A stretch of 52,858 bases of DNA from a virus. Lineage: Duplodnaviria; Caudoviricetes. Under the pieces are notes generated by a model. It saw nothing but the letters and a program-made list of their open reading frames with translations, made no database searches and was not told the origin of the DNA. Numbering within the stretch: position 1 is the stretch's first letter; every line of letters starts with the position of its first letter. A program made the position numbers and the translations under genes. Below are positions 36,598-52,486 of the stretch, piece by piece. The stretch covers positions 1 to 52,858 of the IMG/VR virus record IMGVR_UViG_3300032213_003065. One strand, 5' to 3'.

Positions 36598-36834
36598 TTA
36601 AAATTGTGGATCATATTCAGCTTCTTCTATTTTTTTTCTATTTTCTATTTCTCTGTTTAGATACCAGGCTGCTTTTTCAAGTTCTTGGATTTCTCTATCT
36701 TTTTTTCCACATCTGGAGATATATTTTAAAACATTTCCTATATTAAAATTAGCATTCCATGCTTCTATTACTTTAATAGCTTCATATGGATTACTTTCTC
36801 CCCCATAATGTTTTGGATGATTTACTTTGTCCAT
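36598..36834 (-). CDS. DUF3310 protein (T7 gp1.7-like nucleotide kinase domain)
   Basis: VNHPKHY, GNVLKYISRCGKK, LEKAAWYL. Confidence 0.9.
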   Translation of the reverse strand: MDKVNHPKHYGGESNPYEAIKVIEAWNANFNIGNVLKYISRCGKKDREIQELEKAAWYLNREIENRKKIEEAEYDPQF

Positions 36835-37289
36835 TATTTAATACTTAATTTAGCTTTTTTAATTAATTTATCTGATTCTTTAGATTCAATTCCCATTTCA
36901 TTCAATATTTCTCTAACACCAGTACCTCTTAGAATATCAATATAATGTTCTGCTTCTCCAAGAGAACAGTCAAAATATTTTGCTACATATTCTTCTAATT
37001 CTTTTTGTTCTTTTTTAGCTTCGTTTTTAATATATTTGAGCCACATTTTTCTTTTAGGTATCATCTCTTTATAAATTGAATATATTTGTTTTTTATTTTG
37101 GGGGTTGATCTTTTGTACAAGATTAACAATATCAATATAATCTTGATTCATACTCACATAACGATGAATCATGTAACTATTCCAAGTATCCCATGACTCG
37201 TCTGAAATGATGTCTAGAGGAGACTTATTTACTGTTATCTCCTCTAACCATCCAAAAATGTTTTTAATCTGTTTCTTAGATTGTGTCAT
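36834..37289 (-). CDS. clamp-loader small subunit (T4 gp62-like)
   Basis: YMIHRYVSM, IPKRKMWLKYIK, VAKYFDCSLGEAEHYIDIL; near the RFC ATPase. Confidence 0.75.
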   Translation of the reverse strand: MTQSKKQIKNIFGWLEEITVNKSPLDIISDESWDTWNSYMIHRYVSMNQDYIDIVNLVQKINPQNKKQIYSIYKEMIPKRKMWLKYIKNEAKKEQKELEEYVAKYFDCSLGEAEHYIDILRGTGVREILNEMGIESKESDKLIKKAKLSIK

Positions 37290-37515
37290 TTTTGTATTCT
37301 TCTCTCAATTCTGTAGGAATAGTACTTTCTAAAATTTTACCAGAAACTGGATCATAGAATACAGGAATTGGCATTACTGCATCTTCTTTAGCTCCTACTA
37401 CAAACTTAGATACTTTTCTAAGCAATACACCTTGTTGGAATATTTTGTTTCCATCTGGTGTTTCAATTGATGTTGTTGACTTTAAGTCAATGTTTACTTG
37501 TGGTTGATTTTCCAT
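37276..37515 (-). CDS. conserved hypothetical protein
   Basis: 79-aa ORF translationally coupled in the replication operon. Confidence 0.75.
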   Translation of the reverse strand: MENQPQVNIDLKSTTSIETPDGNKIFQQGVLLRKVSKFVVGAKEDAVMPIPVFYDPVSGKILESTIPTELREEYKNDTI

Positions 37516-37517
37516 TT

Positions 37518-37712
37518 TTATTTGTTTTTATGTTGTTGTTTATAATCTAAAAAGAATCCTATTGCTACTATAATATTCATTCCACAGGATGCTAATATTT
37601 CATGTATATCTTCATAGACAGTGTGCATTAAATGAATATGACCTACTGTCCAGAAAGGTACGGACAAATTTTGAGAAATCCAAATAATTAGGTATCTAAG
37701 GAAATTTATCAT
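37518..37712 (-). CDS. small membrane protein
   Basis: 64-aa hydrophobic ORF, coupled. Confidence 0.65.
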   Translation of the reverse strand: MINFLRYLIIWISQNLSVPFWTVGHIHLMHTVYEDIHEILASCGMNIIVAIGFFLDYKQQHKNK

Positions 37713-38632
37713 ATTACTTTAGGTTTCGCTAATTCTATTAACTTTGAAATCAAAGCCATACAATTTATCTCTTTGTCTATTCTGAATGTTGATTGAAATG
37801 AATATTCATTTATATAATATGCTACCATTCCTTCATTTCCACTAGCATAGTGTTCAGCATTGTCAAATAAGAAACGATATAGTTCTTCAAAATCTTGAAC
37901 ATTTGCATTAGCTATAATCTGTCTAATTTCTTTCCAATCCGGTTTTTTACCGCATAGTAATTTGAGAATTTGCGTCATATAGTTGGATGAAACGAGTATC
38001 GATTTATCTACAGTAAGTGTATTGTTATGTGTAGATAATTGAATAGTATTAAGAATTTTACGTAGATCTGGGTAGAATTGATTTACAATTGTAGCTACAT
38101 CTTCTAATTCAAATGATATTTTTTCTTGATCTAAGATCCAAGCAGCATGTTTAGCTACATCTTTTTTAGTTGGGGGTACAATTTTAAGTACTTGACAACG
38201 TGATTGAAGTGGATCGATTATTCTCTCTACAAAGTTACAAGTTAATATAAATCTTGTATTTCTAGAAAACGTTTCAATTACATTTCGAAGTGATGCTTGA
38301 GCTTGAATAGTTAAGAAATCAGCCTCATCTAATATTACTACTTTGATAGATTTGAAAGACATTGTACTTGCGAAACCTGATACTTTATCTCTAATAGTTT
38401 CAATACCTCTTTCATCTGAAGCGTTTAGGAAAAGATAGTCACAATCTAAATTTTTAACTATTAATTTAGCTAGGGTAGTTTTCCCAGAACCAGGAGGACC
38501 ATAGAAAATCATGTTAACTAGATCATTATTATCTAAAAATTTTTGAATTTGGGTTTTGATATGTTCATTTCCTACAAAATTTTCTAATTTTTGGGGTCTG
38601 TACTTCTCATTCAATAATCCGTGATCTTTCAT
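37709..38632 (-). CDS. clamp-loader AAA+ ATPase (RFC / T4 gp44-like)
   Basis: EKYRP, GPPGSGKT, NASDERG, LDEAD, LQSRC. Confidence 0.95.
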   Translation of the reverse strand: MKDHGLLNEKYRPQKLENFVGNEHIKTQIQKFLDNNDLVNMIFYGPPGSGKTTLAKLIVKNLDCDYLFLNASDERGIETIRDKVSGFASTMSFKSIKVVILDEADFLTIQAQASLRNVIETFSRNTRFILTCNFVERIIDPLQSRCQVLKIVPPTKKDVAKHAAWILDQEKISFELEDVATIVNQFYPDLRKILNTIQLSTHNNTLTVDKSILVSSNYMTQILKLLCGKKPDWKEIRQIIANANVQDFEELYRFLFDNAEHYASGNEGMVAYYINEYSFQSTFRIDKEINCMALISKLIELAKPKVI

Positions 38633-38644
38633 AACTTGTTATTT

Positions 38645-38917
38645 TTATACTCCTTGTTTAAATTCACCGTAAAAACTATATGTTTTAGGCTGTTCTACTG
38701 GTATTTCAACTTCTGTAGTTAGGATAGCATATAATTTACTATCTAGTGGTTCTAATCTATATGGACCCTTAAAGTGTGTTTCATCAAAATATGCTTGAAG
38801 AGTATCAGTTAGAGATTTATGGATAGACCCATTAGGCCCATCCATAACTAATCTCCAAGTATCTCCACCTTTTACTCTAGTAGCAATAAGTATGTTTTCT
38901 TCTTGCGTAGTTGTCAT
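38645..38917 (-). CDS. hypothetical protein
   Basis: 90-aa ORF in operon. Confidence 0.7.
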   Translation of the reverse strand: MTTTQEENILIATRVKGGDTWRLVMDGPNGSIHKSLTDTLQAYFDETHFKGPYRLEPLDSKLYAILTTEVEIPVEQPKTYSFYGEFKQGV

Positions 38918-38918
38918 C

Positions 38919-40565
38919 TTAATACATTGGCATTTCAGGTGATTGATCTTTCACTTCAGGGTGTTGAACTATAATACATTCTGTGATTAGGATTGATCCT
39001 GCAACTGCAGCTGCATTTTCTAATGCTGTACGAGTTACTTTAGCTGGGTCAATAATTCCTGCTTCTTTCATGTTTACTATAGCTTCTTTTTTAATGTTGA
39101 AACCAAACCATGGTTTTGAACCACCTTCACCTTGTTCTCCTATTTCACTTAGGATTGGATAAATTTCACTATCATTTAATCCAGCATTTTTAAGAATTTG
39201 TTCGAATGGTTTACCACATGCTTTATAAACAATATTTTTACCTAAATGAACACTACTATCTCTATCTTCTTTAGTATATGTAATAGCTTCACGAGCATAC
39301 AATAGAGCAGATCCACCACCAGGTACAATACCTTCTTCAACAGCTGCTTTAGTTGCATTCAAAGCATCATCTACACGGTCTTTTTTCTCTTTCATTTCTG
39401 TTTCAGTGAATCCTCCAACATGAATGATTGATACTCCACCTACCATTTTAGCTAAACGATTTTGAAGTTGTTCTCTTTCGAATGGTGTTTTAGCGTTGTC
39501 GATTTGTTTTTGAAGATCTTCTATTCGGTTGTTGATAACTGTTTCATCTCCTTTACCATCTACAATTGTAGTTTGTTCTTTAGAGATAGTAACTGTACGA
39601 GCTGATCCAAACCAATCCCAACTAAATCTATCAAGTTTCATTCCTTTATCTTTATCAAATACAGTTCCACCTGTTAGTGTAGCGATATCTTCAAGGATAA
39701 GTTTTCTTCTATCTCCAAAATCAGGAGCTTTAACAGCACATACTTTGATACTTCCTCTTGCTTTGTTTACTACTAATGTAGCTAAAGCTTCACCATCAAT
39801 ATCTTCAGCAATTACCAATAGAGGTTTGTTTGTTGTTGAAACATGTTCTAGGATTGGAAGCAAATCTTTTACTTGAGTAAATCTTTGATCTGCAATCAAA
39901 ATAAAAGGATCATTTAAAGTACAAGTCATTGTACTATTATCTGTAACAAAATATGGGGATTTGTATCCTCTATCAAATTGCATACCTTCTACTGTTTCAA
40001 GATATGTTTCATCTGATTTTGATTCTTCGATGTGAACTACACCATCTCTACCTACTTTTTCAATTGCAGTAGCAATTAATTTACCTACTTCAGAATCGTT
40101 ATTTGCTGAAATAGTAGCGATTTGTTCTAGTTGTCCTTCATTTGATATATCTTCTGCTACTTGTTCTCTAAGATGCTCAACTACTTGTTTAACAGCAGCA
40201 TCAATACCACGTTTTACTTCTACTGCGTTTACACCATTGTTAATATGTTGTAATCCAGCTTTTACCATTTCACGTGCTAATAGAGTTGAAGTTGTTGTCC
40301 CATCTCCAGCTTTATCTGCTGTTTGCATTGCTGCTTGACGAACCATTTTAACTCCTAAATCTTTAATTCTACCGTTAACATTTACGCTTTTGGCTACTGT
40401 TACACCATCTTTTGTTGATAGTGGAGATTGTTGATCGTTTTCAATCAATACGTTTCTTCCGTTTGGACCTAAAGTACAAACAACTGCATCTGCAAGGATA
40501 TCAATTCCTTCCATTAATTCTTTTCTGGCTTCTGGGCCTAATTTGATTTCTTTTCTTAAATCCAT
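38919..40565 (-). CDS. groEL: chaperonin GroEL
   Basis: TLGPNGRNV, TKDGVTVA, GDGTTT, EGMQFDRGY, EEGIVPGGG, IIDPAKV. Confidence 0.97.
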   Translation of the reverse strand: MDLRKEIKLGPEARKELMEGIDILADAVVCTLGPNGRNVLIENDQQSPLSTKDGVTVAKSVNVNGRIKDLGVKMVRQAAMQTADKAGDGTTTSTLLAREMVKAGLQHINNGVNAVEVKRGIDAAVKQVVEHLREQVAEDISNEGQLEQIATISANNDSEVGKLIATAIEKVGRDGVVHIEESKSDETYLETVEGMQFDRGYKSPYFVTDNSTMTCTLNDPFILIADQRFTQVKDLLPILEHVSTTNKPLLVIAEDIDGEALATLVVNKARGSIKVCAVKAPDFGDRRKLILEDIATLTGGTVFDKDKGMKLDRFSWDWFGSARTVTISKEQTTIVDGKGDETVINNRIEDLQKQIDNAKTPFEREQLQNRLAKMVGGVSIIHVGGFTETEMKEKKDRVDDALNATKAAVEEGIVPGGGSALLYAREAITYTKEDRDSSVHLGKNIVYKACGKPFEQILKNAGLNDSEIYPILSEIGEQGEGGSKPWFGFNIKKEAIVNMKEAGIIDPAKVTRTALENAAAVAGSILITECIIVQHPEVKDQSPEMPMY

Positions 40566-40566
40566 T

Positions 40567-40866
40567 TTATTGTTCGTTTTTAATTTTTGCTAAAATTTGG
40601 TTTTCAGGACCAACATAATATTCTTCACTGTCATGTTCTAGTTTAGTAAATCCCATTGTTGGTAAAATTACAACATCTCCTATTTGGATTTGAGTTTTAA
40701 TAAAATCCCCAGTGATTGTGTGTTTACCTGGTCCAACAGCCACAACTGTTGCTTTTTCATTTTTTTCTTTCCCCATATCTGGGACGATAATGTTACCGTA
40801 AGATTGTTCTTCTGCAGATAATGGTTTTACAATAACTGCATCAAATAGTGCTTCTAATTTTGACAT
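40567..40866 (-). CDS. groES: co-chaperonin GroES
   Basis: LFDAVIVK, GNIIVPD, VVAVGPG, GDVV, ILAKI. Confidence 0.92.
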   Translation of the reverse strand: MSKLEALFDAVIVKPLSAEEQSYGNIIVPDMGKEKNEKATVVAVGPGKHTITGDFIKTQIQIGDVVILPTMGFTKLEHDSEEYYVGPENQILAKIKNEQ

Positions 40867-41183
40867 GCGTTTAATTTATTTATAAGGTTTTGTGTTTCTT
40901 GATTAATTAATTTTAATTCATTCATGTATTCTTTAAGAGAGGTATAAGAATCACATTTGGTTATTTTTTGTCTAGATACTGCTTCTATGGCATTTCCTAA
41001 TGTAGAATAATATCCAATAGCTTTTTCATATGTTTTTCCATTAGGATCTAATTCAACAACAGCATCTTTTTTTCTACGCCCTTTTCCACTTAAAGTAGCA
41101 GGTACTATTTCAAATACTGTATAGTTGTGTTTGTCTTTTCCTATGTAATAAGGTTCTAAAATGGGGTCTTTGATAATGGTCAT
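40854..41183 (-). CDS. hypothetical protein
   Basis: 109-aa ORF with class-B promoter at ~41207. Confidence 0.75.
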   Translation of the reverse strand: MTIIKDPILEPYYIGKDKHNYTVFEIVPATLSGKGRRKKDAVVELDPNGKTYEKAIGYYSTLGNAIEAVSRQKITKCDSYTSLKEYMNELKLINQETQNLINKLNACQN

Positions 41184-41244
41184 ATAACTTATTTATTTTA
41201 TTTACTTAAATATACAAAAGGGAGAGTGGGAAGCCAAATATTTT

Positions 41245-41979
41245 TTAAAAATTCGACTCCGCTTTTCTTACCATAAAATATTCACTGGTGGTAGTGGCAG
41301 TGGTAAATACCATTTGCATAAGACCATCTTTACTCATGTTCAAATATGCTGATTCCATATCTTTATTTGATTGGAGAATAGTTTTAAATATATCTGAATT
41401 GAATGGTATTTTAAGATTTTGTTCAGTTATATCTCCTAATATTTGATATGTAATTTTATTATTATGACCTGATTCATCTCCGAAGATAAATCTACATAGT
41501 GGTTCATCATCTAAACTTTTATCAGTTGTAACTAACATATTATCTATTCCAGATAATGCTGATTTTGCTTTGATAATGTTGTTTATATCTTCAATAGTTA
41601 AAATTAACTTAACAGCCCATTCAGGTACATTTACAGTACCTGCTTTACCAATCAATAATGGGTCTGATAGAGCATATGTTAAGTTAAAGTTGTTGTCTGA
41701 GATATGGAGTTTAGTGCATAGTTTATTGGTTTTTTCTACTTCTAGAAATAGATCACCATAGCATATACTGATAAGGTTAGATAATTTTTTAGTGTCATAG
41801 ATTGCTAATTCACAATCTTCAAATTTAAAGTCATTACATTTAACACTACCGATAACATCTTTGGTAGGCGTCATAAACCTTATCTCTAATGTATTATCAT
41901 TGATAATCCATTTAACGGATTCGTTTAGACCCAAATAGTATTTGTCTATTATAGACGTTAAAACCTGTTTATTTATCAT
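41245..41979 (-). CDS. DNA sliding clamp (T4 gp45/PCNA-like)
   Basis: 244 aa, AIYDTKKL...YALSDP pattern, position between polymerase and clamp loader. Confidence 0.75.
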   Translation of the reverse strand: MINKQVLTSIIDKYYLGLNESVKWIINDNTLEIRFMTPTKDVIGSVKCNDFKFEDCELAIYDTKKLSNLISICYGDLFLEVEKTNKLCTKLHISDNNFNLTYALSDPLLIGKAGTVNVPEWAVKLILTIEDINNIIKAKSALSGIDNMLVTTDKSLDDEPLCRFIFGDESGHNNKITYQILGDITEQNLKIPFNSDIFKTILQSNKDMESAYLNMSKDGLMQMVFTTATTTSEYFMVRKAESNF

Positions 41980-41990
41980 TTATTTATATT

Positions 41991-42254: not shown

Positions 42255-42298
42255 GTTTTTTTGATTTAAATATACAATTTTTTATTTTAGATACCAAA

Positions 42299-45096: not shown

Positions 45097-45612
45097 TTAT
45101 TTCAAAAATTGAGATAGATCGGGTTTAAAGTAATTTATGTTTTTCATTACCTTTCTATCACGAGTTCTATAAACAATAAAATGTTCTCCTACTTGTTCAT
45201 AGTGACATTTTTCACCTTGTTCTTTACTACGTTTTTTAACTGTAGTTTTTGCTTCTTCTTCGGTTTTACATGCTTTAGACATATTTGAAGCTTGAACTTC
45301 ATCATACGCAGGAACTATTTTATCTTTAAGACCATGTAACATAGCTCCATTACCTAATGAAACATAAGTGATATCACACAATGCATCTAATACTTCAACA
45401 ATATTACCTGTTTCACAGGCATGTTTATATTCTTCAAGTTCTTCAAGGATGAAATTGTATACAAACTCCCATTCTTTTCTATCTGGAATGTTAGGTGTAT
45501 AGTTGTTTGGTTTGTTCATTGTTGCATTGAATGTTTCTACTTCAGAAACAAATGGTACATATCCAACTCTATTAGACAACCATTTAATAAATTTTATAGT
45601 TATATTTCTCAT
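45097..45612 (-). CDS. MazG-like / PRA-PH-like nucleoside-triphosphate pyrophosphohydrolase
   Basis: ILEELEEY...EVLDALCDITYV...EVQASNMSK; true start may be internal. Confidence 0.85.
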   Translation of the reverse strand: MRNITIKFIKWLSNRVGYVPFVSEVETFNATMNKPNNYTPNIPDRKEWEFVYNFILEELEEYKHACETGNIVEVLDALCDITYVSLGNGAMLHGLKDKIVPAYDEVQASNMSKACKTEEEAKTTVKKRSKEQGEKCHYEQVGEHFIVYRTRDRKVMKNINYFKPDLSQFLK

Positions 45613-45796: not shown

Positions 45797-46432
45797 TTAT
45801 TTCATTTTAGTTCCATTAACTTCAATTGCATGAAGGAATTCTTCTCTGATTAGGTTATCTTTTTCCATAAACACACCTGAAAATTTATTTGTAGTCATTA
45901 CAGATGGATGTTTAATACCTCTATGGGAGCAACAAGTATGTTTACAAGCAATACTAACTGCTACTGATCCACAATCCATTTTATCTGCAATATAATCATG
46001 AACTTGTTGAGTTAAAGATTCTTGCATTTGTGGTCTACGAGAAAACCATTCTACAATACGATTTAATTTAGATAAACCAATTACGTTTTCAGCAGGTACA
46101 TAAGCTACTGTAGCATATCCAGTGAATGATAAATTGTGATGTGCACACATACTAACAATTGGAATACCTGATTGGATTACTAATCCACTGTATCCTTCAT
46201 CATTTGGGAATACTGTAATGTTTGGTTCGTCTGAAATTGATCCTACAATTAGATCTTTTAGCCATGCTTTAGCTACACGACGAGGTGTATCTTCAGTTTG
46301 TCTATCTGCTTTATAGTCAAAACCAACAGCTGTAAGGAAATCTCCATATGCTTTAGAGGCTTTGTCTATCATTTTATCTATTTCTTTTTGTGTACGGGGA
46401 AGATTACCGTTTGACTTTTTTAATAGTTCCAT
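45797..46432 (-). CDS. folE: GTP cyclohydrolase I
   Basis: TPRRVAKAW, SMCAHH, GLSKLNR, RRPQMQE, HTCCSHRG. Confidence 0.95.
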   Translation of the reverse strand: MELLKKSNGNLPRTQKEIDKMIDKASKAYGDFLTAVGFDYKADRQTEDTPRRVAKAWLKDLIVGSISDEPNITVFPNDEGYSGLVIQSGIPIVSMCAHHNLSFTGYATVAYVPAENVIGLSKLNRIVEWFSRRPQMQESLTQQVHDYIADKMDCGSVAVSIACKHTCCSHRGIKHPSVMTTNKFSGVFMEKDNLIREEFLHAIEVNGTKMK

Positions 46433-46482
46433 TTTATAACTTTATTTATTTGAATATATGAAAAAATATTTGAGGGGCCAAA

Positions 46483-47265
46483 TTAGACACCACGACGAGT
46501 GTCATATGCAATAATATGTTCACGACCTGTGAAATTGTAACCATTTTCAGTACAGAAGTCAAATACCATAGGATATACTCTAATTAATTCTTCACGGTTA
46601 TCTCCTGGAGGCATTAACCATGTTTTAGATTTTGGTATTTCCATTTCAACTCTAAAGTTTTCAATTTCTTCCCATGTTTCAGCCATTTCAACTGGATTAC
46701 AAACTGGTTTGAAATGATAGTCTGTATGGTAAGCTAGTGTTTGTTTAATAGCTTCTTTATTTAATCTTAAACTATTGTGTTTAGCTACCATTTTTTCATC
46801 TGTTAATTCTCCTTTTGGTGTTGGAACTCCAATTTTAGGAACAGAATTTGAAAATTTAGGTGAAAGTGAAATCAAACCAATTGGAAAATCGGTTTCAATA
46901 AAATGTGAACCTTCAGTTTCTATTGTTATTACAATACCTCTTTCATTAGCAAAATGAGTTAATTCATTTACTAGATCAGGATGCATTGTTGGAGAACCTC
47001 CAGTTAACATCATTTCAGTAATATCTGGTCTATCATCGTACATTTTGATGATATCGTTAAATGTAAATGTACCTTTTTCTGGGTGTACTGAAGTATACCA
47101 TGAATCACACCATCCACCGTCTCCAAACCAACATCTGTGAGTACAGCCTGTTGTTCTGATAGCTACGGTTGGTTTACCTGCTCTTGATCCTTCTGATTGG
47201 ATACAATAATATAGTTCTACTATTTGTAATGGTTTATCGTAATGTTTTAATCTACCTGGTTTCAT
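46483..47265 (-). CDS. queE: 7-carboxy-7-deazaguanine synthase (radical SAM)
   Basis: IQSEG, RTTGCTHRC-x7-CDS (expanded CxxxCxxC), LTGG, ETEG, LSPK. Confidence 0.9.
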   Translation of the reverse strand: MKPGRLKHYDKPLQIVELYYCIQSEGSRAGKPTVAIRTTGCTHRCWFGDGGWCDSWYTSVHPEKGTFTFNDIIKMYDDRPDITEMMLTGGSPTMHPDLVNELTHFANERGIVITIETEGSHFIETDFPIGLISLSPKFSNSVPKIGVPTPKGELTDEKMVAKHNSLRLNKEAIKQTLAYHTDYHFKPVCNPVEMAETWEEIENFRVEMEIPKSKTWLMPPGDNREELIRVYPMVFDFCTENGYNFTGREHIIAYDTRRGV

Positions 47266-47273
47266 ATTTTATT

Positions 47274-47741
47274 TTAATTTTCTTGATAAATTGCTGTGTT
47301 TTTGTTATGCTCCATAAACTCTACTTTTGCTACTTTAACTCTACCATTTGTTTCTTCTTGAACAAATGTGTTTAATTTCTTGTAGATATATTTTGCAAAT
47401 TGTTCTGCTCCTGTAGCTGGGATTATTCTTAATTGGATAATGCCCATATCACTAGCTATTTTAAATGATTCTAGATATGGATCATCTTCAGCTATTATTG
47501 TAGTGTGGTCAAACATGTAATCCATCCATTCTTTAGGATTCTTACCATCAATATGACCATTAGCTCTTTTCATACCACCAAAATCCCATACCCAATTACG
47601 TTCGTCTAATTCACCTTCGAACCATACTCTAAATGATACTCCATAACCATGTAGGAATCTACAATGTGTTCCTTCTGCTTTCCATTGGCGAAACACTGTA
47701 CTGAAACCATCAAATAGTTTTGTTGATTGAAATTTTCCCAT
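47274..47741 (-). CDS. queD: 6-carboxy-5,6,7,8-tetrahydropterin synthase
   Basis: HCRFLHGY, WVWDFG, FDHT, GAE. Confidence 0.9.
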   Translation of the reverse strand: MGKFQSTKLFDGFSTVFRQWKAEGTHCRFLHGYGVSFRVWFEGELDERNWVWDFGGMKRANGHIDGKNPKEWMDYMFDHTTIIAEDDPYLESFKIASDMGIIQLRIIPATGAEQFAKYIYKKLNTFVQEETNGRVKVAKVEFMEHNKNTAIYQEN

Positions 47742-47747
47742 TTTATA

Positions 47748-47993
47748 TTATTTAAAGTTGCTTATATAAAAGTCTGCATTTTTTACTCCAGTGAATCTTT
47801 TAAGTTCATTATTACTGTTGTCTACTAAAATAACAGTAGGAACACTTCGGATGCCAAATCTTGATGACATATCCGGGTTAGAATCGACATCTATTTTTTC
47901 AACTGGGATTCCTTTTGATTTTACTTGTTCCATAATTGGAGATAAAGATTGGCATGGACCACACCATGCTGCTGAGAATTGTAAGTATTTCAT
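47748..47993 (-). CDS. trxA: thioredoxin
   Basis: WCGPC, IRSVPT. Confidence 0.92.
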   Translation of the reverse strand: MKYLQFSAAWCGPCQSLSPIMEQVKSKGIPVEKIDVDSNPDMSSRFGIRSVPTVILVDNSNNELKRFTGVKNADFYISNFK

Positions 47994-48006
47994 TTTATTT
48001 ATTTGT

Positions 48007-48213
48007 TTAATTAAAAAATTCGTTTTCTTCTATTAAGGTGCATTTTCCACTTAAGGTCAATAGTTTTGTATTGGATAAACATAGGGGTTTTGCTTCTTCC
48101 CATTTCGAGGAAAAAACAAAATTGCCACCTAATAATCCTATAAAAACTTCATCTAAATCATTCATAACCACATATTGTGGTTCTTTATTTTCTTGTTTTT
48201 TTCTTCTAGCCAT
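48007..48213 (-). CDS. hypothetical protein
   Basis: 68-aa ORF. Confidence 0.65.
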   Translation of the reverse strand: MARRKKQENKEPQYVVMNDLDEVFIGLLGGNFVFSSKWEEAKPLCLSNTKLLTLSGKCTLIEENEFFN

Positions 48214-48383
48214 TATACTAATTCTTCTATTATTCCTATAATTTCGCTAAATATAAGAACTCCTGTTGCAAATACCAAATCTATTGGTAAAAGAATGTAA
48301 CCTACTATTCTAGTTCCAGATTTAATAAAACTTACGATTTTATGCCATTTTTGATCAGGCATGTGATTTAAATTTTTATCCAT
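48213..48383 (-). CDS. small membrane protein (56 aa)
   Basis: Manual ORF MDKNLNHMPDQKWHKIVSFIKSGTRIVGY...SEIIGIIEELV*. Confidence 0.6.
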   Translation of the reverse strand: MDKNLNHMPDQKWHKIVSFIKSGTRIVGYILLPIDLVFATGVLIFSEIIGIIEELV

Positions 48384-48389
48384 GATTTT

Positions 48390-48812
48390 TTATTTTAAAT
48401 ATTCTTTTATGTTTATTCCTGTTTGTTTTTCCTGGTAGTGGAAATCTCTATGACAATTTGAGCATAAAGGGATACATTTTTTTAATTCTTCTTTTGTTAT
48501 TTCAATACCTCTTATAACAGTACCAATCATAAAATCTTTTTCCTTTGGGTTAATATGATGAGCATCTATTGTATGAGGTCTAGTTTCTCTGCATTTCTGG
48601 CAACCTTGGGATTTCCATTCTAAAATCAATTGGTTATATTTTTTGCTATGGTTTTTACTATTTTCTCTCCACTTGTCTTTATTATTTTGTCTATAAGCTT
48701 CAGTTCTAATAGCCATACATTTACGGCATTTACTTAAATTTCTATTTCGAGATTTATCATAAGTAAAATCAGTTAATGATTTTTTAATGTTACAGTCAGT
48801 ACAAGTTTTCAT
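48390..48812 (-). CDS. HNH endonuclease with N-terminal zinc finger (free-standing homing-endonuclease-like)
   Basis: CTDC...CRKC, CQKC, DAHHINP, LCSNCHRDFH. Confidence 0.85.
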   Translation of the reverse strand: MKTCTDCNIKKSLTDFTYDKSRNRNLSKCRKCMAIRTEAYRQNNKDKWRENSKNHSKKYNQLILEWKSQGCQKCRETRPHTIDAHHINPKEKDFMIGTVIRGIEITKEELKKCIPLCSNCHRDFHYQEKQTGINIKEYLK

Positions 48813-48826
48813 AATAGTATAATTAA

Positions 48827-48861
48827 TGGGTATTCACGATTATACATATGATGAATACCCA
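48827..48861. promoter_or_regulatory. 10-bp inverted repeat enclosing an ATATGTATAA box upstream of the HNH gene
   Basis: TGGGTATTCA (48827-36) / TGAATACCCA (48852-61) with 15-nt loop. Confidence 0.6.
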
Positions 48862-48871
48862 CTAAAATATA

Positions 48872-49726
48872 TTATTTTCCATTTTCTTCTAAAACTTTTT
48901 CTACATGGGCTTTAACTGTTTCCCAGGAAACAACTTTACCATTTTCTCCATAAGTTACAGGGTCAGGACGGCCTAATTTAATAAACGCCTCTACTCGCTC
49001 AACTGAGGATGCTGAACGGAAATCACTCCATCCTTCTGGGGTTGGTTTATAGGATGTATTTGTACGGGAGTATACTTCATTAAAATCAAGTCCTAGTTCT
49101 TTACATAGTACTTCTCCGTCTTTTAAGATATCAAACTTCATTCCATTAATATATGGAGTAAAATAACCTACTTTTTCAGCTCCCCAATTTCCTAAACGGA
49201 AAGCAGCATCATCCGCATCACGAAATTCAGCTCTACAATCTGGGTAGATTGAAAAGTCACCTGCATGGATTCCTAATGCAATATCACATGTTTCGCCTGT
49301 TTTTTGAGCTACAGATAACGCTACTGCTTGGGTGATTGAAGCAAATATTTTGTTACGGTTAGGAACAACTGTTGCTTTCATATTATCTTCAGCATAGTGT
49401 CCTTCAGGTACATCGTCTCCACCTGTTACCAAAGCTGAATCTAATAGATCAACTAGTCCATTTAATTGAATTTGACGATAGGTGATAGGGGTAAAATTCT
49501 CTCCTGTTACTGTGATTGTACCTAATTGGTCTTGTTCTGCTTTTTGAGAACAACCATTTAAATAATCTACCAATGATTGAGCTCTCTCTAGCTCAACTCT
49601 ATGTTTTTGACCATAGTCAAATGAGATAGCAGTTACACTATCGTATTCTTTTAGACATCTAAGCAACAATGTACTTGAGTCCATACCACCTGAAAGTGAT
49701 ACTACTACATGTTTTTTAGTTTCCAT
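48872..49726 (-). CDS. queC: 7-cyano-7-deazaguanine synthase
   Basis: SLSGGMDS, FDYGQKH, TVVPNRN, GIHAGD, YPDCR; C-terminal Zn-binding Cys cluster replaced (TSY...SASSVER). Confidence 0.92.
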   Translation of the reverse strand: METKKHVVVSLSGGMDSSTLLLRCLKEYDSVTAISFDYGQKHRVELERAQSLVDYLNGCSQKAEQDQLGTITVTGENFTPITYRQIQLNGLVDLLDSALVTGGDDVPEGHYAEDNMKATVVPNRNKIFASITQAVALSVAQKTGETCDIALGIHAGDFSIYPDCRAEFRDADDAAFRLGNWGAEKVGYFTPYINGMKFDILKDGEVLCKELGLDFNEVYSRTNTSYKPTPEGWSDFRSASSVERVEAFIKLGRPDPVTYGENGKVVSWETVKAHVEKVLEENGK

Positions 49727-49937
49727 TAAATATTTCTTTTACTTTAAAAAATGCATCTATTGTTTCTTTAGGGTATATTTCAATTTTCCCATCGTTATAT
49801 TTTGAATGTGGTACTATTTTATGTGCTTTAGGAGCACCTATAATACGAGCAAATGCATATAATTGTTTTCCTACACCGTCTGTGTCTCTGTGTCCTCTAT
49901 ATTCATATAGAGACATGAATGTTTTACTTTCTGTCAT
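49716..49937 (-). CDS. hypothetical protein
   Basis: 73-aa ORF coupled to queC. Confidence 0.7.
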   Translation of the reverse strand: MTESKTFMSLYEYRGHRDTDGVGKQLYAFARIIGAPKAHKIVPHSKYNDGKIEIYPKETIDAFFKVKEIFNGN

Positions 49938-50008
49938 GTTGTAAATTGTTTATATTTTTAAATAATAACTAAATATACAAAGAAAGTTTTAGGAAGCCAA
50001 ATTTTGTT

Positions 50009-51667
50009 TTATTTTTTTGGAATTACATATTGAGAATAAACTCGACCATCAGCAGTAGATAATGTTGGAATTAAATATTTATCAACTATATTTTTAGGCA
50101 ACATTGCTAATCCATCTCCTCTTCCCCAAAAATCATATTTTTTTAATTTTTTATCAATGTCTTCTATTTTAGATTGAAGTCCTAATTCTTCCCAAGTTTT
50201 AAATTTTATACTATCCTTAATTTTTTTAGATATAGGGTCTCTATAATCAGAACCAAATCTATATTCTTCTGCTTCTTTAAAATCTGGGTTGGATTTTTGG
50301 AAATCATATCCTGATTTTTCAATAACACGTACATAATAATCAGGGAATAATGGTGTTAAATCCCATTTTTCAAATATAAATGGGTTTCTATACATATATT
50401 GTTTTTTATCAGTTAATCCGGAAGGCTCATCTGGAAGAGGGTATGTTTTTGAGTTATTTGTAAAAGTATAAGTTTTAAAATTTGGGTATGGATGTAAATA
50501 AGCGGCATTAGATATTTTAATTTCTTGGGGTTTTGGATTATATTGTATCTGGGAAGGGTTTCCTTCTTTAGATTGTTTATAAGGAGTATTAGATTGGGGA
50601 GTACCCTGGTAAGTTTCAGAAGGTATATTCATTTTATTTAACATACCATTTAAAACTTCTAAATATTTTTGTTGTCTTTTATTAGGTTGTTTTTTTATAA
50701 AAATGTCTATTCTTTTTATATATGGAATAAGATAGAATTTTCTACCATCAGTTATTATAGCTTCTTCAGCATATTTACCTTTAGCACCTTTTCTTTTTAA
50801 AAAATTTTTTCTATCTTCATAATCTAAACCATCATCTCCATAAGAATTATCAATATCCGAAGGGTGTACAAATCCTTGAATTTTATATTTAGTACTAATT
50901 TTATCTCCATCTAGCATTATTCGACACATTATGTTATCATCTCCATGGGATATAAATCCTGTATCTGAGTTTGCGTATCTAGAAGTAGAAATTTGATTTT
51001 CATCATTAGGTACAATATGCTGAGATTTTAAAATATCAATACAATAATTTATTGGGGTAAAGTGATATAAATTTCCTACTTGTTTTGCTTCTAAAAGTAT
51101 TTCTTTTAATAAATTCATGAATTTCATAGGATTGATTTTATCTTTTATTTGGGATTTTAAAAAATCGAAATATTGTTGGTTACCTATAAAATATTTTTTT
51201 GCATTTCCTAAATCTTCATATTTAAATGTGATACTCCCATCAGAATTAACTGTAAAGTCGTTATCTCCAAATACTTCTTTTGGAATAAATTTAATAAGAG
51301 ATTTAAATAATAATGGTTTTGGATTTTTAAATCCTAATTTTTTCATCATAGGTAACAGGTCATTTGATACCATTCCCCAAATTGGTTTATTTAAAGAGTT
51401 AAGTTCTTGTATTCCTTTTAAAATACCTTTAGGGTTCCCCCCAACAATTGCCAACTTATATAAACCACTTTGTTGTATTCTTACAGCAACATATCCTGTT
51501 TGATCTCCATAAAAAGTCCAATTATCTGCTCTTTCAAAAAAATTATATTTATCCCAAGCTTTTCCAACACTTTTTTCATATGAATTTTTATATAAATTAT
51601 ATATATTATTTTGTTCTTCAGGTGAAAGATCTTCTATATAAAAAGTTTCATATAATTTTTTTTTCAT
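50009..51667 (-). CDS. two-module putative virion cargo protein; second module ADP-ribosyltransferase-like
   Basis: Internal MKFMNLLKEILLEAK leader then LYHFT...ISTSR...AEE; preceded by ATATTTATAA. Confidence 0.55.
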   Translation of the reverse strand: MKKKLYETFYIEDLSPEEQNNIYNLYKNSYEKSVGKAWDKYNFFERADNWTFYGDQTGYVAVRIQQSGLYKLAIVGGNPKGILKGIQELNSLNKPIWGMVSNDLLPMMKKLGFKNPKPLLFKSLIKFIPKEVFGDNDFTVNSDGSITFKYEDLGNAKKYFIGNQQYFDFLKSQIKDKINPMKFMNLLKEILLEAKQVGNLYHFTPINYCIDILKSQHIVPNDENQISTSRYANSDTGFISHGDDNIMCRIMLDGDKISTKYKIQGFVHPSDIDNSYGDDGLDYEDRKNFLKRKGAKGKYAEEAIITDGRKFYLIPYIKRIDIFIKKQPNKRQQKYLEVLNGMLNKMNIPSETYQGTPQSNTPYKQSKEGNPSQIQYNPKPQEIKISNAAYLHPYPNFKTYTFTNNSKTYPLPDEPSGLTDKKQYMYRNPFIFEKWDLTPLFPDYYVRVIEKSGYDFQKSNPDFKEAEEYRFGSDYRDPISKKIKDSIKFKTWEELGLQSKIEDIDKKLKKYDFWGRGDGLAMLPKNIVDKYLIPTLSTADGRVYSQYVIPKK

Positions 51668-51688
51668 ATTATTGTTTCGTTATAAATA

Positions 51689-52486
51689 TCATGAACGTTG
51701 TATATTGTTTATATTTTTAAATAATGTTAAATTTGCTTCTAAAAGATCAAAATCAATATTTTCAATGTTAATATTGTAATGGTCGTTCATGTTCGCTTTA
51801 GGTTTTTCAGTTAGACCTGAGATGTTATACATATTGCCTTCTAATGTAGCCATTATAGGATTTGAAGTATCAATAGATTCTATACAATTGATTCCTTGAT
51901 ACCATCCAAATTCTTGAGGTACAGCACATCCTAATAAATGTACTCTATCAAATTGAGATAAAACTTCTTGGTTTAATAACGTTGAAATTACATAAACACG
52001 TCCTAATGCTTTTCCTATGTTTTTGTTTGGATGAACGCAGATATCGTTATAATATGACGCCCCATATGAATAAGCTATTTTTTGATATCTTAAATCTTTA
52101 TATGTTTGAGTACATAAAAATGCTTCATGTAATGTTTTAGCCTGCACTACAGCTACTTTGGTTGTTTCTTTAGGTAATTCCATACCTGACCAATATCTGG
52201 CATTAACTACACTTTGAATATAGTTTTCCCAAACATCAGGTACTATAAATTCATTTGGTTTTAGTTCATCAATCCAGTGAAGTAAACGTTTAGTATCATA
52301 TGCTTTACCTAATTCATGAAGTGAATTATCCATTATAATATATCGACCTTGTCTTTTAGATTCTCTAAAAAATTCTAAATATTCAGGATCTTGATCAAGT
52401 AAATGGGGAAGACAATAGTCATAATCGTTGAATTGTCTACTTTGTTCTAATAAACATTTTGGTACTTCGTGACTAATTTTTATCAT
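51689..52486 (-). CDS. dpdA: TGT-fold transglycosylase, divergent DpdA-like
   Basis: IMDNS, VPDV, VVQ, HLLG, SIDTS motifs of the TGT barrel; linked to queC/D/E and folE. Confidence 0.75.
   Translation of the reverse strand: MIKISHEVPKCLLEQSRQFNDYDYCLPHLLDQDPEYLEFFRESKRQGRYIIMDNSLHELGKAYDTKRLLHWIDELKPNEFIVPDVWENYIQSVVNARYWSGMELPKETTKVAVVQAKTLHEAFLCTQTYKDLRYQKIAYSYGASYYNDICVHPNKNIGKALGRVYVISTLLNQEVLSQFDRVHLLGCAVPQEFGWYQGINCIESIDTSNPIMATLEGNMYNISGLTEKPKANMNDHYNINIENIDFDLLEANLTLFKNINNIQRS

What the first reader, a model, noticed from the sequence alone, without database searches (positions are those of the whole stretch)
36598..52486. 7-deazaguanine module wired into the replisome: possible pre-replicative G replacement
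Seen: dpdA-like, queC, queD, queE and folE are followed immediately by a MazG-like NTP pyrophosphatase, polB, clamp and loader, and a DUF3310 protein. No queF, arcS or gat-queC lies in the window. Known: FolE-QueD-QueE-QueC make preQ0, DpdA inserts it into DNA, some Bacteroidota phages with divergent DpdA replace G extensively, and T7 gp1.7 phosphorylates dGMP/dTMP. Inference: the DNA contains dPreQ0 or a derivative. The divergent TGT (DNS rather than DSG/DCG), pyrophosphatase and kinase could make a modified dNTP and deplete dGTP, by analogy with Z-genome phages.
Basis: partly seen in the sequence, partly recalled or inferred. Interest (0 to 1): 0.7.

Follow-up and report, generated by a model that had tools for sequence, protein, structure and literature searches.

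The report
Phage 7-deazaguanine DNA modification module
A fragment of an uncultivated phage carries a known type of gene set for replacing guanine in its DNA with a 7-deazaguanine base, and its relatives show links to nucleotide kinases that reopen the question of whether the swap happens before or after DNA is copied.

Summary
On the minus strand, 36598-52486 encodes a DpdA-like protein, QueC, QueD, QueE, FolE, a MazG-like pyrophosphatase, PolB, clamp-loader subunits and a DUF3310 protein. No QueF is present. The "clamp" could not be confirmed.

The DpdA-like protein belongs to the published DpdA3 family. It is 37% identical to the DpdA of Flavobacterium phage immuto_2-6A, and a pLDDT 94.5 model matches TGT/DpdA structures at Z about 17. 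The window is a 33%-complete fragment of an immuto-like phage. Near-complete relatives also lack QueF, so dPreQ0 (or dADG) DNA is predicted.

- **MazG as dGTP depleter: not supported.** Relatives carry an ordinary dUTPase in the same FolE-PolB slot. The two were mutually exclusive in 8 of 8 records, and no HD dGTPase was found.
- **DUF3310 link: supported.** DUF3310, the conserved core of the T7 gp1.7 dGMP/dTMP kinase, is fused to DpdA3 in many metagenomic lineages.
- **A second kinase link.** A P-loop kinase sits beside DpdA3 in Campylobacter and Bacteroidota phages, though not in this window's own clade.

Pre-replicative insertion therefore stays open at about 0.35. The module is a new member of a known kind. 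The kinase links appear undescribed.

The parts
51689..52486 (-). DpdA3-family guanine transglycosylase (265 aa), a minimal TGT-fold barrel
   Evidence: tblastn: 37% identity over 100% of the query, E 1e-49, to the annotated DpdA of Flavobacterium phage immuto_2-6A; 34-37% to Campylobacter CP220-group proteins. phrog_19058, E 1e-36. AF2 model pLDDT 94.5. All 50 listed Foldseek rows are TGT/ArcTGT/DpdA. VIA Z 17.4/17.1/16.9 with 233 of 265 residues aligned. Invariant D53-N54-S55, D84, Q115, D206-T-S-N-P.
50009..51667 (-). 552-aa ORF inserted between DpdA3 and its usual neighbour; probably not part of the module
   Evidence: No Pfam, PHROG or NCBIfam hit. Absent from this position in relatives. 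Atlas leads only, all under 0.9: GNAT-like N-terminus and ART-PolyVal/DarT-like middle part.
49716..49937 (-). 73-aa DpdA3-associated small protein ('unk73')
   Evidence: Present in 22 of 43 loci, usually directly after DpdA3. Fused to the DpdA3 C-terminus in P0123 and P0160. No family hit.
48872..49726 (-). QueC (7-cyano-7-deazaguanine synthase), 284 aa
   Evidence: Pfam QueC, E 1.1e-36. 82% nucleotide and 79% amino-acid identity to immuto QueC.
48390..48812 (-). HNH endonuclease, a variable insertion
   Evidence: phrog_2255, E 1.4e-26. Present in only a few relatives.
48007..48383 (-). Two small conserved ORFs: u56 (48213-48383, hydrophobic) and u68 (48007-48213)
   Evidence: u56 in 26 and u68 in 13 of 43 loci, always inside the Que cluster. 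No family hits.
47748..47993 (-). Thioredoxin
   Evidence: Pfam Thioredoxin, E 1.1e-15. Found in 24 of 43 loci.
47274..47741 (-). QueD (CPH4 synthase, PTPS family)
   Evidence: Pfam PTPS, E 2.3e-16. 73% identity to immuto QueD.
46483..47265 (-). QueE (radical SAM CDG synthase)
   Evidence: Pfam Radical_SAM, E 3.4e-7. 63% identity to the annotated immuto QueE.
45797..46432 (-). FolE (GTP cyclohydrolase I)
   Evidence: Pfam GTP_cyclohydroI, E 4.4e-47.
45097..45612 (-). All-alpha NTP pyrophosphohydrolase (MazG-like, PRA-PH family); most likely this phage's dUTPase equivalent
   Evidence: Pfam PRA-PH, E 5.2e-9. phrog_671. 75-82% identity across relatives. Mutually exclusive with dUTPase/DCD-family genes in 8 of 8 records, with replacement in the same slot.
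42299..45025 (-). Family B DNA polymerase (908 aa)
   Evidence: Pfam DNA_pol_B, E 6.8e-27, and exonuclease domain, E 1e-17.
41245..41979 (-). Putative sliding clamp (244 aa), unconfirmed
   Evidence: Follows PolB in relatives. No Pfam, PHROG or PDB-profile hit.
38919..40866 (-). GroES (40567-40866) and GroEL (38919-40565)
   Evidence: Pfam Cpn10, E 9.3e-22; Cpn60, E 3.4e-72.
36834..38632 (-). Clamp-loader large subunit (37709-38632) and small subunit (36834-37289), with two small ORFs between them
   Evidence: Pfam AAA and DNA_pol3_delta2. phrog_225 'clamp loader', E 1.3e-13.
36598..36834 (-). DUF3310 protein (78 aa), equivalent to the conserved C-terminal core of the T7 gp1.7 nucleotide kinase
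   Evidence: Pfam DUF3310, E 2.2e-16. phrog_236 'nucleotide kinase', E 3.8e-25. 37% identity to T7 gp1.7 residues 119-175. Same domain type fused to DpdA3 in other lineages.
35648..36595 (-). PD-(D/E)XK nuclease, the constant neighbour of DUF3310
   Evidence: Pfam PDDEXK_1, E 1.7e-20. Adjacent to DUF3310 in 56 of 80 related loci.

Best explanation
The region is the replication and nucleotide-metabolism block of an uncultivated phage related to the Flavobacterium Immutovirus phages. It contains a DpdA3-type 7-deazaguanine DNA-modification module.

**Pathway (inferred from family functions).** FolE, QueD, QueE and QueC make preQ0 from GTP. The DpdA3 protein exchanges guanine for that base. It is a minimal TGT-fold barrel that keeps three invariant aspartates but has no zinc site.

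**Predicted product (inferred).** No QueF, formyltransferase, methylase or decarboxylase homologue is present here or in near-complete relatives. The DNA base is therefore predicted to be dPreQ0, or possibly its amide dADG. All three DpdA3 phages whose DNA was analysed chemically show complete replacement, so replacement here is probably very high or complete.

**Stage of insertion.** I lean slightly (about 55:35) towards the published model, exchange on DNA after replication. Every characterised enzyme of this fold acts on a polynucleotide.

**Other components.**
- The MazG-like enzyme is most likely this phage's dUTPase equivalent. It is not a dGTP depleter.
- The DUF3310 protein is a genuine associate of DpdA3 systems. 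Its role is open: a nucleotide kinase, or an accessory to the transglycosylase.
For: **Shown here**
- Homology to the annotated DpdA of immuto_2-6A and to CP220-group proteins.
- TGT fold at high model confidence.
- Invariant D53, D84 and D206, spaced 31 and 122 residues apart. In bacterial DpdA the essential aspartates are D95, D130 and D256, spaced 35 and 126 (PMC10164549, section 30).
- A complete preQ0 gene set.
- The same gene order in 41 IMG/VR loci.
- QueF is absent from the window and from 5 of 5 related records, 3 of them at least 90% complete. DpdA3 is present in 5 of 5 of those records.
- MazG-like and dUTPase-family genes are mutually exclusive in 8 of 8 records. The dUTPase-family gene occupies the FolE-PolB slot in G002, G005 and G006.

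**From the literature**
- DpdA3 phages phiST, CP220 and immuto_2-6A have complete G replacement, and the authors propose post-replicative insertion (PMC10516641, abstract, Table 1 and discussion passages).
Against: - No chemistry exists for this phage or for any member of its QueF-less clade. The identity of the base and the level of replacement are predictions.
- DpdA3 activity has never been reconstituted. The authors' E. coli tests failed (PMC10516641 discussion).
- The post-replicative lean is weakened by the kinase links.
- It is also weakened by the report of free ADG nucleoside in CP220-infected cells, as cited in PMC10516641.
- From my own knowledge: other well-understood complete base replacements in phages are made at the nucleotide level.
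- The dUTPase reading of the MazG-like enzyme rests on gene displacement, not on substrate data.
- A dUTPase-type gene is embedded in the deazaguanine module in several distant clades. That could mean more than housekeeping.
Confidence: 0.55

Rival explanations
1. Pre-replicative route. DpdA3 exchanges the base on a free deoxyguanosine nucleoside or nucleotide. Kinases then rebuild the triphosphate: DUF3310/gp1.7-like, plus the AAA_28-type P-loop kinase encoded elsewhere in the genome. The phage polymerase writes the modified base directly into DNA. A purine phosphoribosyltransferase, present in relatives, recycles the released guanine and pulls the exchange forward. The MazG-like enzyme plays no dGTP-specific part.
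For: - DUF3310-type domains are fused to the DpdA3 C-terminus. 12 of 120 listed homologues carry PF11753. 22 of 32 long forms inspected have such tails.
- The domain matches T7 gp1.7 residues 119-183. gp1.7 phosphorylates dTMP and dGMP (PMC11897194 passage).
- A homologous P-loop kinase sits beside DpdA3 in CP220-group phages, amid tail genes. It is 37% identical to the kinase of a Bacteroidota-phage contig, E 7e-30.
- 19 of 20 DpdA3-positive isolate records also hold this kinase, against 72 of the other roughly 50,700 records.
- The kinase lies within 10 kb of DpdA3 in 13 of 13 lineages of the immuto superclade. It lies directly upstream of DpdA3::DUF3310 in 3 of 3 fused-clade records.
- It is present in 3 of 3 near-complete genomes of the window's own clade.
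- HGPRT-like or XGPRT-like genes occur in 14 of 26 lineages.
- Complete replacement, free ADG nucleoside, and failure of DpdA3 in a DNA-modification test (PMC10516641 passages).
Against: - No TGT-superfamily enzyme is known to act on mononucleotides.
- No dGTP-removing enzyme was found: MazG-like is displaced by dUTPases, and HD domains scored 0 of 8 above cut-off.
- In the window's own superclade the P-loop kinase is not near DpdA3 (0 of 11 lineages).
- DUF3310 is missing from one 92%-complete relative.
- The kinase, the dUTPase and ThyA could together simply be thymidylate metabolism for a 72% A+T genome.
- The same kinase family occurs in 70 Streptomyces phage records. In the one examined (Paradiddles), the ORF next to the kinase is not a DpdA3.
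- DUF3310's constant neighbour is a PD-(D/E)XK nuclease (56 of 80 loci).
- It is not known whether the 78-aa domain alone has kinase activity. It lacks the first 118 residues of gp1.7.
Confidence: 0.35
2. Post-replicative exchange with an ATP-using helper. The P-loop 'kinase', and perhaps DUF3310, serve DpdA3 the way the ATPase DpdB serves bacterial DpdA. They would not act as nucleotide kinases.
For: - Bacterial DpdA needs the ATPase DpdB to insert preQ0 into DNA (PMC10164549 abstract).
- In the fused form the DUF3310 domain is a small three-helix unit on a flexible linker. That looks more like an accessory domain than a stand-alone enzyme.
Against: - The P-loop protein resembles small-molecule kinases: Pfam AAA_28, the NadR kinase domain, and thymidylate kinase 9wd2 at E 7e-4.
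- DpdB is not known to me to be of this fold (recalled, not tested).
- gp1.7 has measured kinase activity (PMC11897194 passage).
Confidence: 0.15
3. Low-level, site-specific modification, as with DpdA1 or DpdA2 phages, rather than bulk replacement.
For: - Other phage DpdA subfamilies modify 0.1-30% of G (PMC10516641 discussion).
- The window's DpdA3 is only 37% identical to the nearest protein from a chemically analysed phage.
Against: - All three chemically analysed DpdA3 phages show complete replacement.
- The phage encodes the entire preQ0 pathway, and relatives add purine salvage. That fits a heavy demand for the base.
Confidence: 0.1
4. The TGT-like protein modifies tRNA (host or phage), not DNA.
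For: - It has a TGT fold.
Against: - Its closest relatives come from phages with proven deazaguanine DNA.
- It has no zinc subdomain and no PF01702 hit.
- It has no tRNA-binding extensions; it is a 265-aa bare barrel.
Confidence: 0.03

Closest known systems
[quoted passage not shown]
   Same: - DpdA3 homologue at 37% identity.
- QueC 79%, QueD 73%, QueE 63%, MazG-like 76%, GroEL 59% identical.
- Same order: Que genes, FolE, NTP pyrophosphatase, polymerase, GroES/EL, DUF3310.
   Different: - immuto has QueF, the formyltransferase DpdN and a P-loop kinase next to DpdA3, plus a family A polymerase.
- The window has none of the first three near DpdA3, and it has PolB.
- The predicted base differs: preQ0 level rather than formyl-preQ1.
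Campylobacter phage CP220 group (dADG, complete replacement)
   Same: - DpdA3 homologue at 34-37% identity.
   Different: - T4-like backbone.
- DpdA3 lies between an HD/P-loop protein and a P-loop kinase, amid tail genes.
- A QueC variant is said to stop before preQ0 (PMC10516641 passages).
Cellulophaga phage phiST (dDG, complete replacement)
   Same: [quoted passage not shown]
   Different: - phiST lacks QueC and has the decarboxylase DpdL.
- Its DpdA3 was not reached by tblastn from the window protein at E 1e-3.
Bacterial DpdA/DpdB and phage DpdA1/DpdA2
   Same: - TGT fold; VIA Z 17.1 to 7ui4.
- Three aspartates with similar spacing.
   Different: - No PF01702 hit.
- No conserved Cys/His cluster for zinc.
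- About 150 residues shorter than 7ui4.
- No DpdB.
- Those systems modify at most about 30% of G.
T7 gp1.7 nucleotide kinase
   Same: - The window's DUF3310 protein aligns with gp1.7 residues 119-175 at 37% identity.
   Different: - 78 aa against 196 aa; the N-terminal 118 residues are missing.
- Kinase activity of the bare domain is untested.
Pre-replicative base replacement systems (T4 hmC; Z-genome phages with PurZ/MazZ/DatZ) - recalled, no call
   Same: - The concept only: complete replacement, a nucleotide-level modifying enzyme, kinases, and adjacency to the replisome.
   Different: - No enzyme that removes the canonical dNTP was identified here.
- The modifying enzyme is of a fold known only from polynucleotide substrates.

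Membership tests
DpdA3 (phage 7-deazaguanine transglycosylase subfamily) | Sequence homology to DpdA3 proteins of phages with chemically proven deazaguanine DNA | tested here: met
   37% identity over 100% of the query, E 1e-49, to immuto DpdA. 34-37% identity, E about 1e-31, to the CP220 group. Same PHROG, phrog_19058.
DpdA3 (phage 7-deazaguanine transglycosylase subfamily) | TGT-type TIM-barrel fold | tested here: met
   Model pLDDT 94.5. All 50 listed Foldseek rows are TGT, ArcTGT or DpdA. VIA Z 16.5-17.4, rmsd 3.1-3.5, about 233 of 265 residues aligned.
DpdA3 (phage 7-deazaguanine transglycosylase subfamily) | Catalytic aspartates equivalent to D95, D130 and D256 of bacterial DpdA | tested here: inconclusive
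   D53, D84 and D206 are invariant in 29 of 29 sequences. They sit at or just after predicted strand ends and have similar spacing. No residue-level structural superposition was available.
DpdA3 (phage 7-deazaguanine transglycosylase subfamily) | Co-occurrence with 7-deazaguanine synthesis genes | tested here: met
   FolE, QueD, QueE and QueC lie within 6 kb. The same linkage holds in relatives.
DpdA3 (phage 7-deazaguanine transglycosylase subfamily) | Guanine/7-deazaguanine exchange activity and complete replacement in virion DNA | not testable with these tools
   Needs enzyme assays and LC-MS.
Canonical TGT / DpdA1-2 (Pfam PF01702) | Match to the Pfam TGT model | tested here: not met
   No PF01702 hit at E 0.01. 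Only DUF6610, at 17.2 bits and below cut-off. A profile of 29 sequences found no TGT among PDB sequences.
Canonical TGT / DpdA1-2 (Pfam PF01702) | Zinc-binding Cys/His cluster after the nucleophile aspartate (feature recalled) | tested here: not met
   No invariant Cys or His lies after D206. The only invariant Cys is C187.
MazG / all-alpha NTP pyrophosphohydrolase | Match to a family model above cut-off | tested here: met
   PRA-PH, 36.8 bits against a cut-off of 21.3. Atlas places it in viral PRA-PH clusters at 0.97.
dGTP-specific pyrophosphatase (MazZ-like role) | Specific role in removing dGTP | tested here: inconclusive
   Substrate preference cannot be tested here. The gene is replaced in place by dUTPase-family genes and is mutually exclusive with them in 8 of 8 records. 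That points to a dUTPase role.
T7 gp1.7 nucleotide kinase | DUF3310 core domain | tested here: met
   Pfam DUF3310, 60.1 bits. BLASTP to gp1.7 residues 119-175, E 5e-5.
T7 gp1.7 nucleotide kinase | Full-length architecture (196 aa) | tested here: not met
   The window protein is 78 aa and covers only the C-terminal third of gp1.7.
T7 gp1.7 nucleotide kinase | dGMP/dTMP kinase activity | not testable with these tools
   Needs an enzyme assay.
Pre-replicative base-replacement system (Z-genome or T4 type) | Enzyme that removes the canonical dNTP | tested here: inconclusive
   No HD domain above cut-off in 8 of 8 records. The MazG-like enzyme looks like a dUTPase stand-in. An unrecognised enzyme is not excluded.

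The most novel reading that the evidence does not exclude
DpdA3 may not be a DNA-modifying enzyme at all. It may be a deoxyguanosine-nucleotide (or nucleoside) transglycosylase. Together with a dedicated P-loop kinase and a gp1.7-like DUF3310 kinase domain (fused, adjacent or in trans), it would build 7-deaza-dGTP analogues for direct incorporation by the phage polymerase. Guanine salvage by a phage phosphoribosyltransferase would pull the exchange forward. That would be the first pre-replicative purine base-exchange pathway. It would explain why only DpdA3 phages reach 100% replacement.
Probability: 0.35. Interest if true: 0.9.

Novelty: new member of a known kind. Interest (0 to 1): 0.6.

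Why it matters
DpdA3 phages are the only known phages that replace every guanine with a 7-deazaguanine, and how they do it has never been shown biochemically.

This window belongs to a large, uncultivated, mostly aquatic clade. The family profile found 3868 clusters at 50% identity. The clade pairs DpdA3 with a bare preQ0 pathway, so it predicts a DNA type not yet reported for this subfamily: fully dPreQ0-substituted DNA.

The comparative results give concrete, cheap experiments that could overturn or confirm the post-replicative model:
- recurrent DpdA3::DUF3310 fusions;
- a DpdA3/P-loop-kinase gene pair shared by Campylobacter and Bacteroidota phages;
- embedded purine phosphoribosyltransferases.

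The results also remove one tempting but probably wrong component, MazG as a dGTPase. Enzymes that make 7-deaza-dGTP analogues, or polymerases tuned to them, would be useful tools for restriction-resistant DNA.

Tried and rejected
- **Complex prediction of window DpdA3 (A1) with window DUF3310 (A3):** no verdict. Score 0.00 against a mark of 0.32, and controls were not run. This is not evidence either way.
- **Profile of DpdA3 against PDB sequences:** no TGT. Only de novo TIM barrels at weak scores.
- **Single-sequence PDB searches of DpdA3 and the MazG-like protein:** nothing meaningful.
- **The search for related loci with the single fused protein P0253:** nothing found. The alignment A2 worked.
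- **AF2 model of fused P0253:** the two domains are joined by a linker of pLDDT under 50, with pTM 0.70. No reliable docking of DUF3310 on the barrel can be read.
- **Streptomyces phage Paradiddles:** the 'methyltransferase' beside the kinase homologue is not a DpdA3 (hhalign probability 0.07).
- **CP220 gp055 (HD + P-loop):** no detectable similarity to the DpdA3-adjacent kinase. I do not count it as a second kinase or as a dGTPase.
- **The 552-aa ORF against the GNAT-like tail of P0159:** no similarity.
- **Putative clamp:** no support from Pfam, PHROG or a PDB profile search.
- **HD-domain search for a dGTPase:** nothing above cut-off in 8 records.
- **Isoelectric points of DpdA3 proteins:** mostly 4.8-6. 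Considered as a hint against DNA binding, but too weak to use.
- **Literature:**
  - 'DpdA' with 'pre-replicative': 0 papers.
  - 'DpdA3': 2 records of one work.
  - 'DUF3310': 22 papers, of which 20 were seen as titles and abstract starts. None concerns deazaguanine by title.
  - The main text of PMC10516641 has 0 occurrences of kinase, phosphoribosyl, dGTP, pre-replicat, DUF3310 or gp1.7.
  - Its supplementary tables could not be opened and may list neighbouring genes.
  - Crippen et al. 2019 was not seen. It is used only as cited in PMC10516641.

Full report
**What is in the sequence.**
All ORFs of the region lie on the minus strand and are tightly packed. Read in the direction of transcription, they are:
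- a 265-aa DpdA-like protein (51689-52486)
- a 552-aa ORF with no family (50009-51667)
- a 73-aa ORF (49716-49937)
- QueC (48872-49726)
- an HNH endonuclease (48390-48812)
- two small ORFs (48007-48383)
- thioredoxin (47748-47993)
- QueD (47274-47741)
- QueE (46483-47265)
- FolE (45797-46432)
- a 59-aa ORF
- a MazG-like PRA-PH-family pyrophosphohydrolase (45097-45612)
- PolB (42299-45025)
- an 87-aa ORF
- a 244-aa putative clamp (41245-41979)
- a phrog_154 protein
- GroES and GroEL (38919-40866)
- clamp-loader large and small subunits (36834-38632)
- a 78-aa DUF3310 protein (36598-36834)
- a PD-(D/E)XK nuclease (35648-36595)

It omitted the interleaved genes, and its 'clamp' has no profile support.

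The window is an entire IMG/VR record rated 33% complete. G+C is about 28%.

**The DpdA-like protein is a DpdA3.**
- Pfam finds no TGT domain.
[quoted passage not shown] It also finds hypothetical proteins of Campylobacter phages of the CP220 group at 34-37%.
- These are the phages in which the DpdA3 subfamily was defined. Their DNA has all G replaced: fdPreQ1 in immuto, dADG in CP220, dDG in phiST (PMC10516641, abstract, Table 1 and passages).
- An AlphaFold2 model built on 29 sequences has mean pLDDT 94.5.
- All 50 listed Foldseek rows are bacterial TGT, archaeosine TGT or bacterial DpdA.
- VIA-align gives Z 17.4 (1iq8), 17.1 (7ui4) and 16.9 (2pwv), with about 233 of 265 residues aligned.
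- D53-N54-S55, D84, Q115 and D206-T-S-N-P are invariant. The three aspartates are spaced 31 and 122 residues apart. The catalytic D95, D130 and D256 of bacterial DpdA are spaced 35 and 126 (PMC10164549, section 30). This equivalence is inferred, not superposed.
- No conserved Cys/His cluster follows D206, so the zinc site of canonical TGTs is absent.

**Relatives and the predicted base.**
The family is very large. There were 3056 hits in the word-indexed search and 3868 clusters at 50% identity in the exhaustive profile search.

Forty-one IMG/VR loci show a conserved order: SSB, RecA, exonuclease, DnaB, RNR, DpdA3, unk73, QueC, u56, u68, Trx, QueD, QueE, (a phosphoribosyltransferase), FolE, MazG-like, PolB, clamp candidate. 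This matches the annotated layout of immuto_2-6A, except that immuto has a family A polymerase and also has QueF, the formyltransferase DpdN and a 'thymidylate kinase' beside DpdA3.

QueF is absent in three senses:
- absent from the window;
- not within 10 kb of DpdA3 in any of the 11 lineages of the window's superclade;
- absent from 5 of 5 related records, including three that are 92%, 93% and 100% complete. All five do hold DpdA3.

The window's QueC is 79% identical to immuto's QueC. That enzyme must deliver preQ0 for QueF (inference). The predicted DNA base is therefore dPreQ0, or at most its amide. That combination is not among the chemically analysed DpdA3 phages.

**The MazG-like enzyme.**
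It is the best-conserved protein of the block. It shows 75-82% identity where DpdA3 shows 52-72% and PolB 36-54%, and 76% identity to immuto where DpdA3 shows 37%.

Of 11 loci that cover FolE through PolB, 9 have it in that slot. The other 2 have a dCTP-deaminase/dUTPase-like gene there instead.

Whole-record searches gave a clean pattern:

| Record | Completeness | MazG-like | dUTPase family |
|---|---|---|---|
| window | 33% | present | none found |
| immuto_2-6A | complete isolate | present | none found |
| G001 | 92% | present | none found |
| G004 | 42% | present | none found |
| G002 | 67% | absent | two DCD-like copies |
| G003 | 100% | absent | PF00692 |
| G005 | 100% | absent | PF00692 |
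| G006 | 93% | absent | PF00692 |

For the window, the DCD model was checked only by local BLAST. In G005 and G006 the dUTPase lies exactly between FolE and PolB.

That is 8 of 8 exclusive, with replacement in place. The simplest reading is that the MazG-like enzyme is this phage's dUTPase equivalent. No HD-domain protein scores above cut-off in any of the 8 records.

One caution. A dUTPase-type gene is embedded in the deazaguanine module in several distant clades:
- QueC, DCD-like gene, QueD in the QueF clade;
- FolE, dUTPase, QueC, kinase, DpdA3 in a clade with a DnaE-type polymerase;
- a dUTPase/MazG-like gene beside DpdA3 in phiST (PMC10516641 passage).

Housekeeping is the likeliest reading, but it is not proven.

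**Kinase links.**
Ten of the longer proteins among the 150 best profile hits were scanned for extra domains. DpdA3 was found fused to:
- DUF3310 (P0253);
- Formyl_trans_N, that is DpdN (P0165, P0176);
- the unk73 protein (P0123, P0160);
- GNAT-like regions (P0159, P0182; judged by eye, as Pfam found no family);
- homing-endonuclease modules.

A search with P0253 listed 120 homologues, and 12 of them carry PF11753. Among 32 long forms whose tails I printed:
- 15 have the same DUF3310 type;
- 6 have the window's own DUF3310 type;
- 1 has a third type;
- 9 have a different small helical tail (phrog_1485);
- 1 has DUF6378.

This comes, classified by eye. PHROG or Pfam confirmation was run for P0290, P0287, P0238 and P0297 only.

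The DUF3310 domain aligns with residues 119-183 of T7 gp1.7. That enzyme phosphorylates dTMP and dGMP (PMC11897194 passage).

Separately, a P-loop kinase of Pfam family AAA_28 accompanies DpdA3. Its best PDB hit is a thymidylate kinase at E 7e-4.
- In CP220 it is the gene after DpdA3, in an island between tail sheath and tail tube genes. It is 37% identical (E 7e-30) to the kinase next to DpdA3 in a Bacteroidota-phage contig, and 32% identical to immuto's.
- Among 50,697 isolate records, 19 of the 20 with a DpdA3 hit also have this kinase, in 18 of them within about 1.3 kb. Elsewhere it is found only as 70 distant Streptomyces-phage records and 2 extra Campylobacter segments.
- In metagenomic loci it lies within 10 kb of DpdA3 in 13 of 13 lineages of the immuto superclade.
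- It lies directly upstream of DpdA3::DUF3310 in 3 of 3 fused-clade records.
- In the window's own superclade it is not linked to DpdA3 (0 of 11 lineages). It is nonetheless present elsewhere in 3 of 3 near-complete genomes.

DUF3310 is present in the window, in immuto, and in 2 of 3 near-complete relatives. It is missing from the 92%-complete G001. Its constant neighbour is the PD-(D/E)XK nuclease (56 of 80 loci).

HGPRT-like or XGPRT-like phosphoribosyltransferases sit between QueE and FolE in 14 of 26 lineages, but not in this window.

**How it most likely works.**
- **Shown:** the genes, the fold, the homology, and the synteny.
- **Inferred from family functions:** GTP is converted to preQ0 by FolE, QueD, QueE and QueC, and DpdA3 swaps guanine for it.
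- **Stage of the swap:** open. The published model is post-replicative and rests on the presence of a TGT homologue. DpdA3 activity could not be reconstituted (PMC10516641 discussion).

The kinase fusions and the conserved kinase pair, complete replacement, and the reported free ADG nucleoside all fit a nucleotide-level route. The phosphoribosyltransferases fit either model, as guanine salvage.

Against that route:
- no dGTP-removing enzyme was found;
- this fold is known only with polynucleotide substrates;
- the kinase is unlinked in the window's own clade;
- dUTPase, kinase and ThyA (10314-11621) could together be plain thymidylate supply for an A+T-rich genome.

Bacterial DpdA needs an ATPase partner (PMC10164549 abstract). 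That offers a third reading of the P-loop protein.

My odds are: post-replicative about 0.55 (including the helper variant), pre-replicative about 0.35, other about 0.1.

**Novelty.**
The module is a new member of a known kind, the DpdA3 systems. It belongs to an abundant uncultivated clade with a predicted, not yet reported chemistry.

The following were not found in the literature I could search:
- the DpdA3::DUF3310 fusions;
- the DpdA3/kinase pair;
- the in-place MazG/dUTPase displacement.

The supplements of PMC10516641 were not readable.

Noticed in passing
window 18249-35343 (minus strand): A roughly 17-kb sugar-nucleotide and glycan biosynthesis island. It holds GT2, epimerases, a TPP-dependent enzyme, a 3-dehydroquinate-synthase-like protein, an SDR, an HpcH-type aldolase, two GDP-mannose-4,6-dehydratase-family proteins, a GT11 fucosyltransferase, a DegT aminotransferase and two GT1/GT4 proteins. 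Whether it decorates the host surface, the virion or the DNA is unknown.
   Followed up: partly
window 50009-51667: A 552-aa ORF inserted between DpdA3 and unk73 in this lineage only. Atlas leads, all under 0.9, point to a GNAT-like N-terminus and an ART-PolyVal/DarT-like ADP-ribosyltransferase middle part. Two shorter ORFs with the same middle domain lie near RNR in L015.
   Followed up: partly
window 49716-49937; P0123, P0160: A 73-aa protein of no known family follows DpdA3 in 22 of 43 loci. It is fused to the DpdA3 C-terminus in two metagenomic cluster representatives. It is a likely DpdA3 partner.
   Followed up: partly
window 48213-48383: A 56-aa hydrophobic protein with an invariant C-terminal end is kept inside the Que gene cluster in 26 of 43 loci, across both DpdA3 superclades. 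No family hit.
   Followed up: no
L009:15701-16213, L011:14624-15040 and relatives: HGPRT-like (TIGR01203, E 1.7e-32) or XGPRT-like phosphoribosyltransferases are embedded between QueE and FolE in 14 of 26 DpdA3 lineages. They are absent from this window, where QueE and FolE are adjacent.
   Followed up: partly
L209 (Campylobacter phage CP220) 7862-10355: DpdA3 sits in a three-gene island between tail sheath and tail tube genes. The island is an HD-domain plus P-loop protein, then DpdA3, then a P-loop kinase.
   Followed up: partly
L012, L017, L027, L028, L030: PolB is split into two ORFs (about 570 and 310 aa) in several relatives. In three of them the 87-aa ORF that follows PolB in the window lies between the halves. 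The same small ORF turns up at other positions in other loci, as if mobile.
   Followed up: no
window 35648-36834 and L051-L130: DUF3310 and a PD-(D/E)XK nuclease form a fixed pair in 56 of 80 loci. The DUF3310 core is 67-88% identical across many different viral contigs, which is unusually conserved for a 70-aa phage protein.
   Followed up: partly
window 10314-11621: The thymidylate synthase is 435 aa, and the Pfam match is split into two stretches. This suggests a large insertion. The immuto homologue is 423 aa.
   Followed up: no
L131 (IMG/VR contig, 93% complete): A third backbone carries the module next to a DnaE-type polymerase. The order is QueD ... QueE, two ORFs, FolE, dUTPase, QueC, P-loop kinase, DpdA3::DUF3310, Pol III alpha (split by a GIY-YIG gene).
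   Followed up: partly
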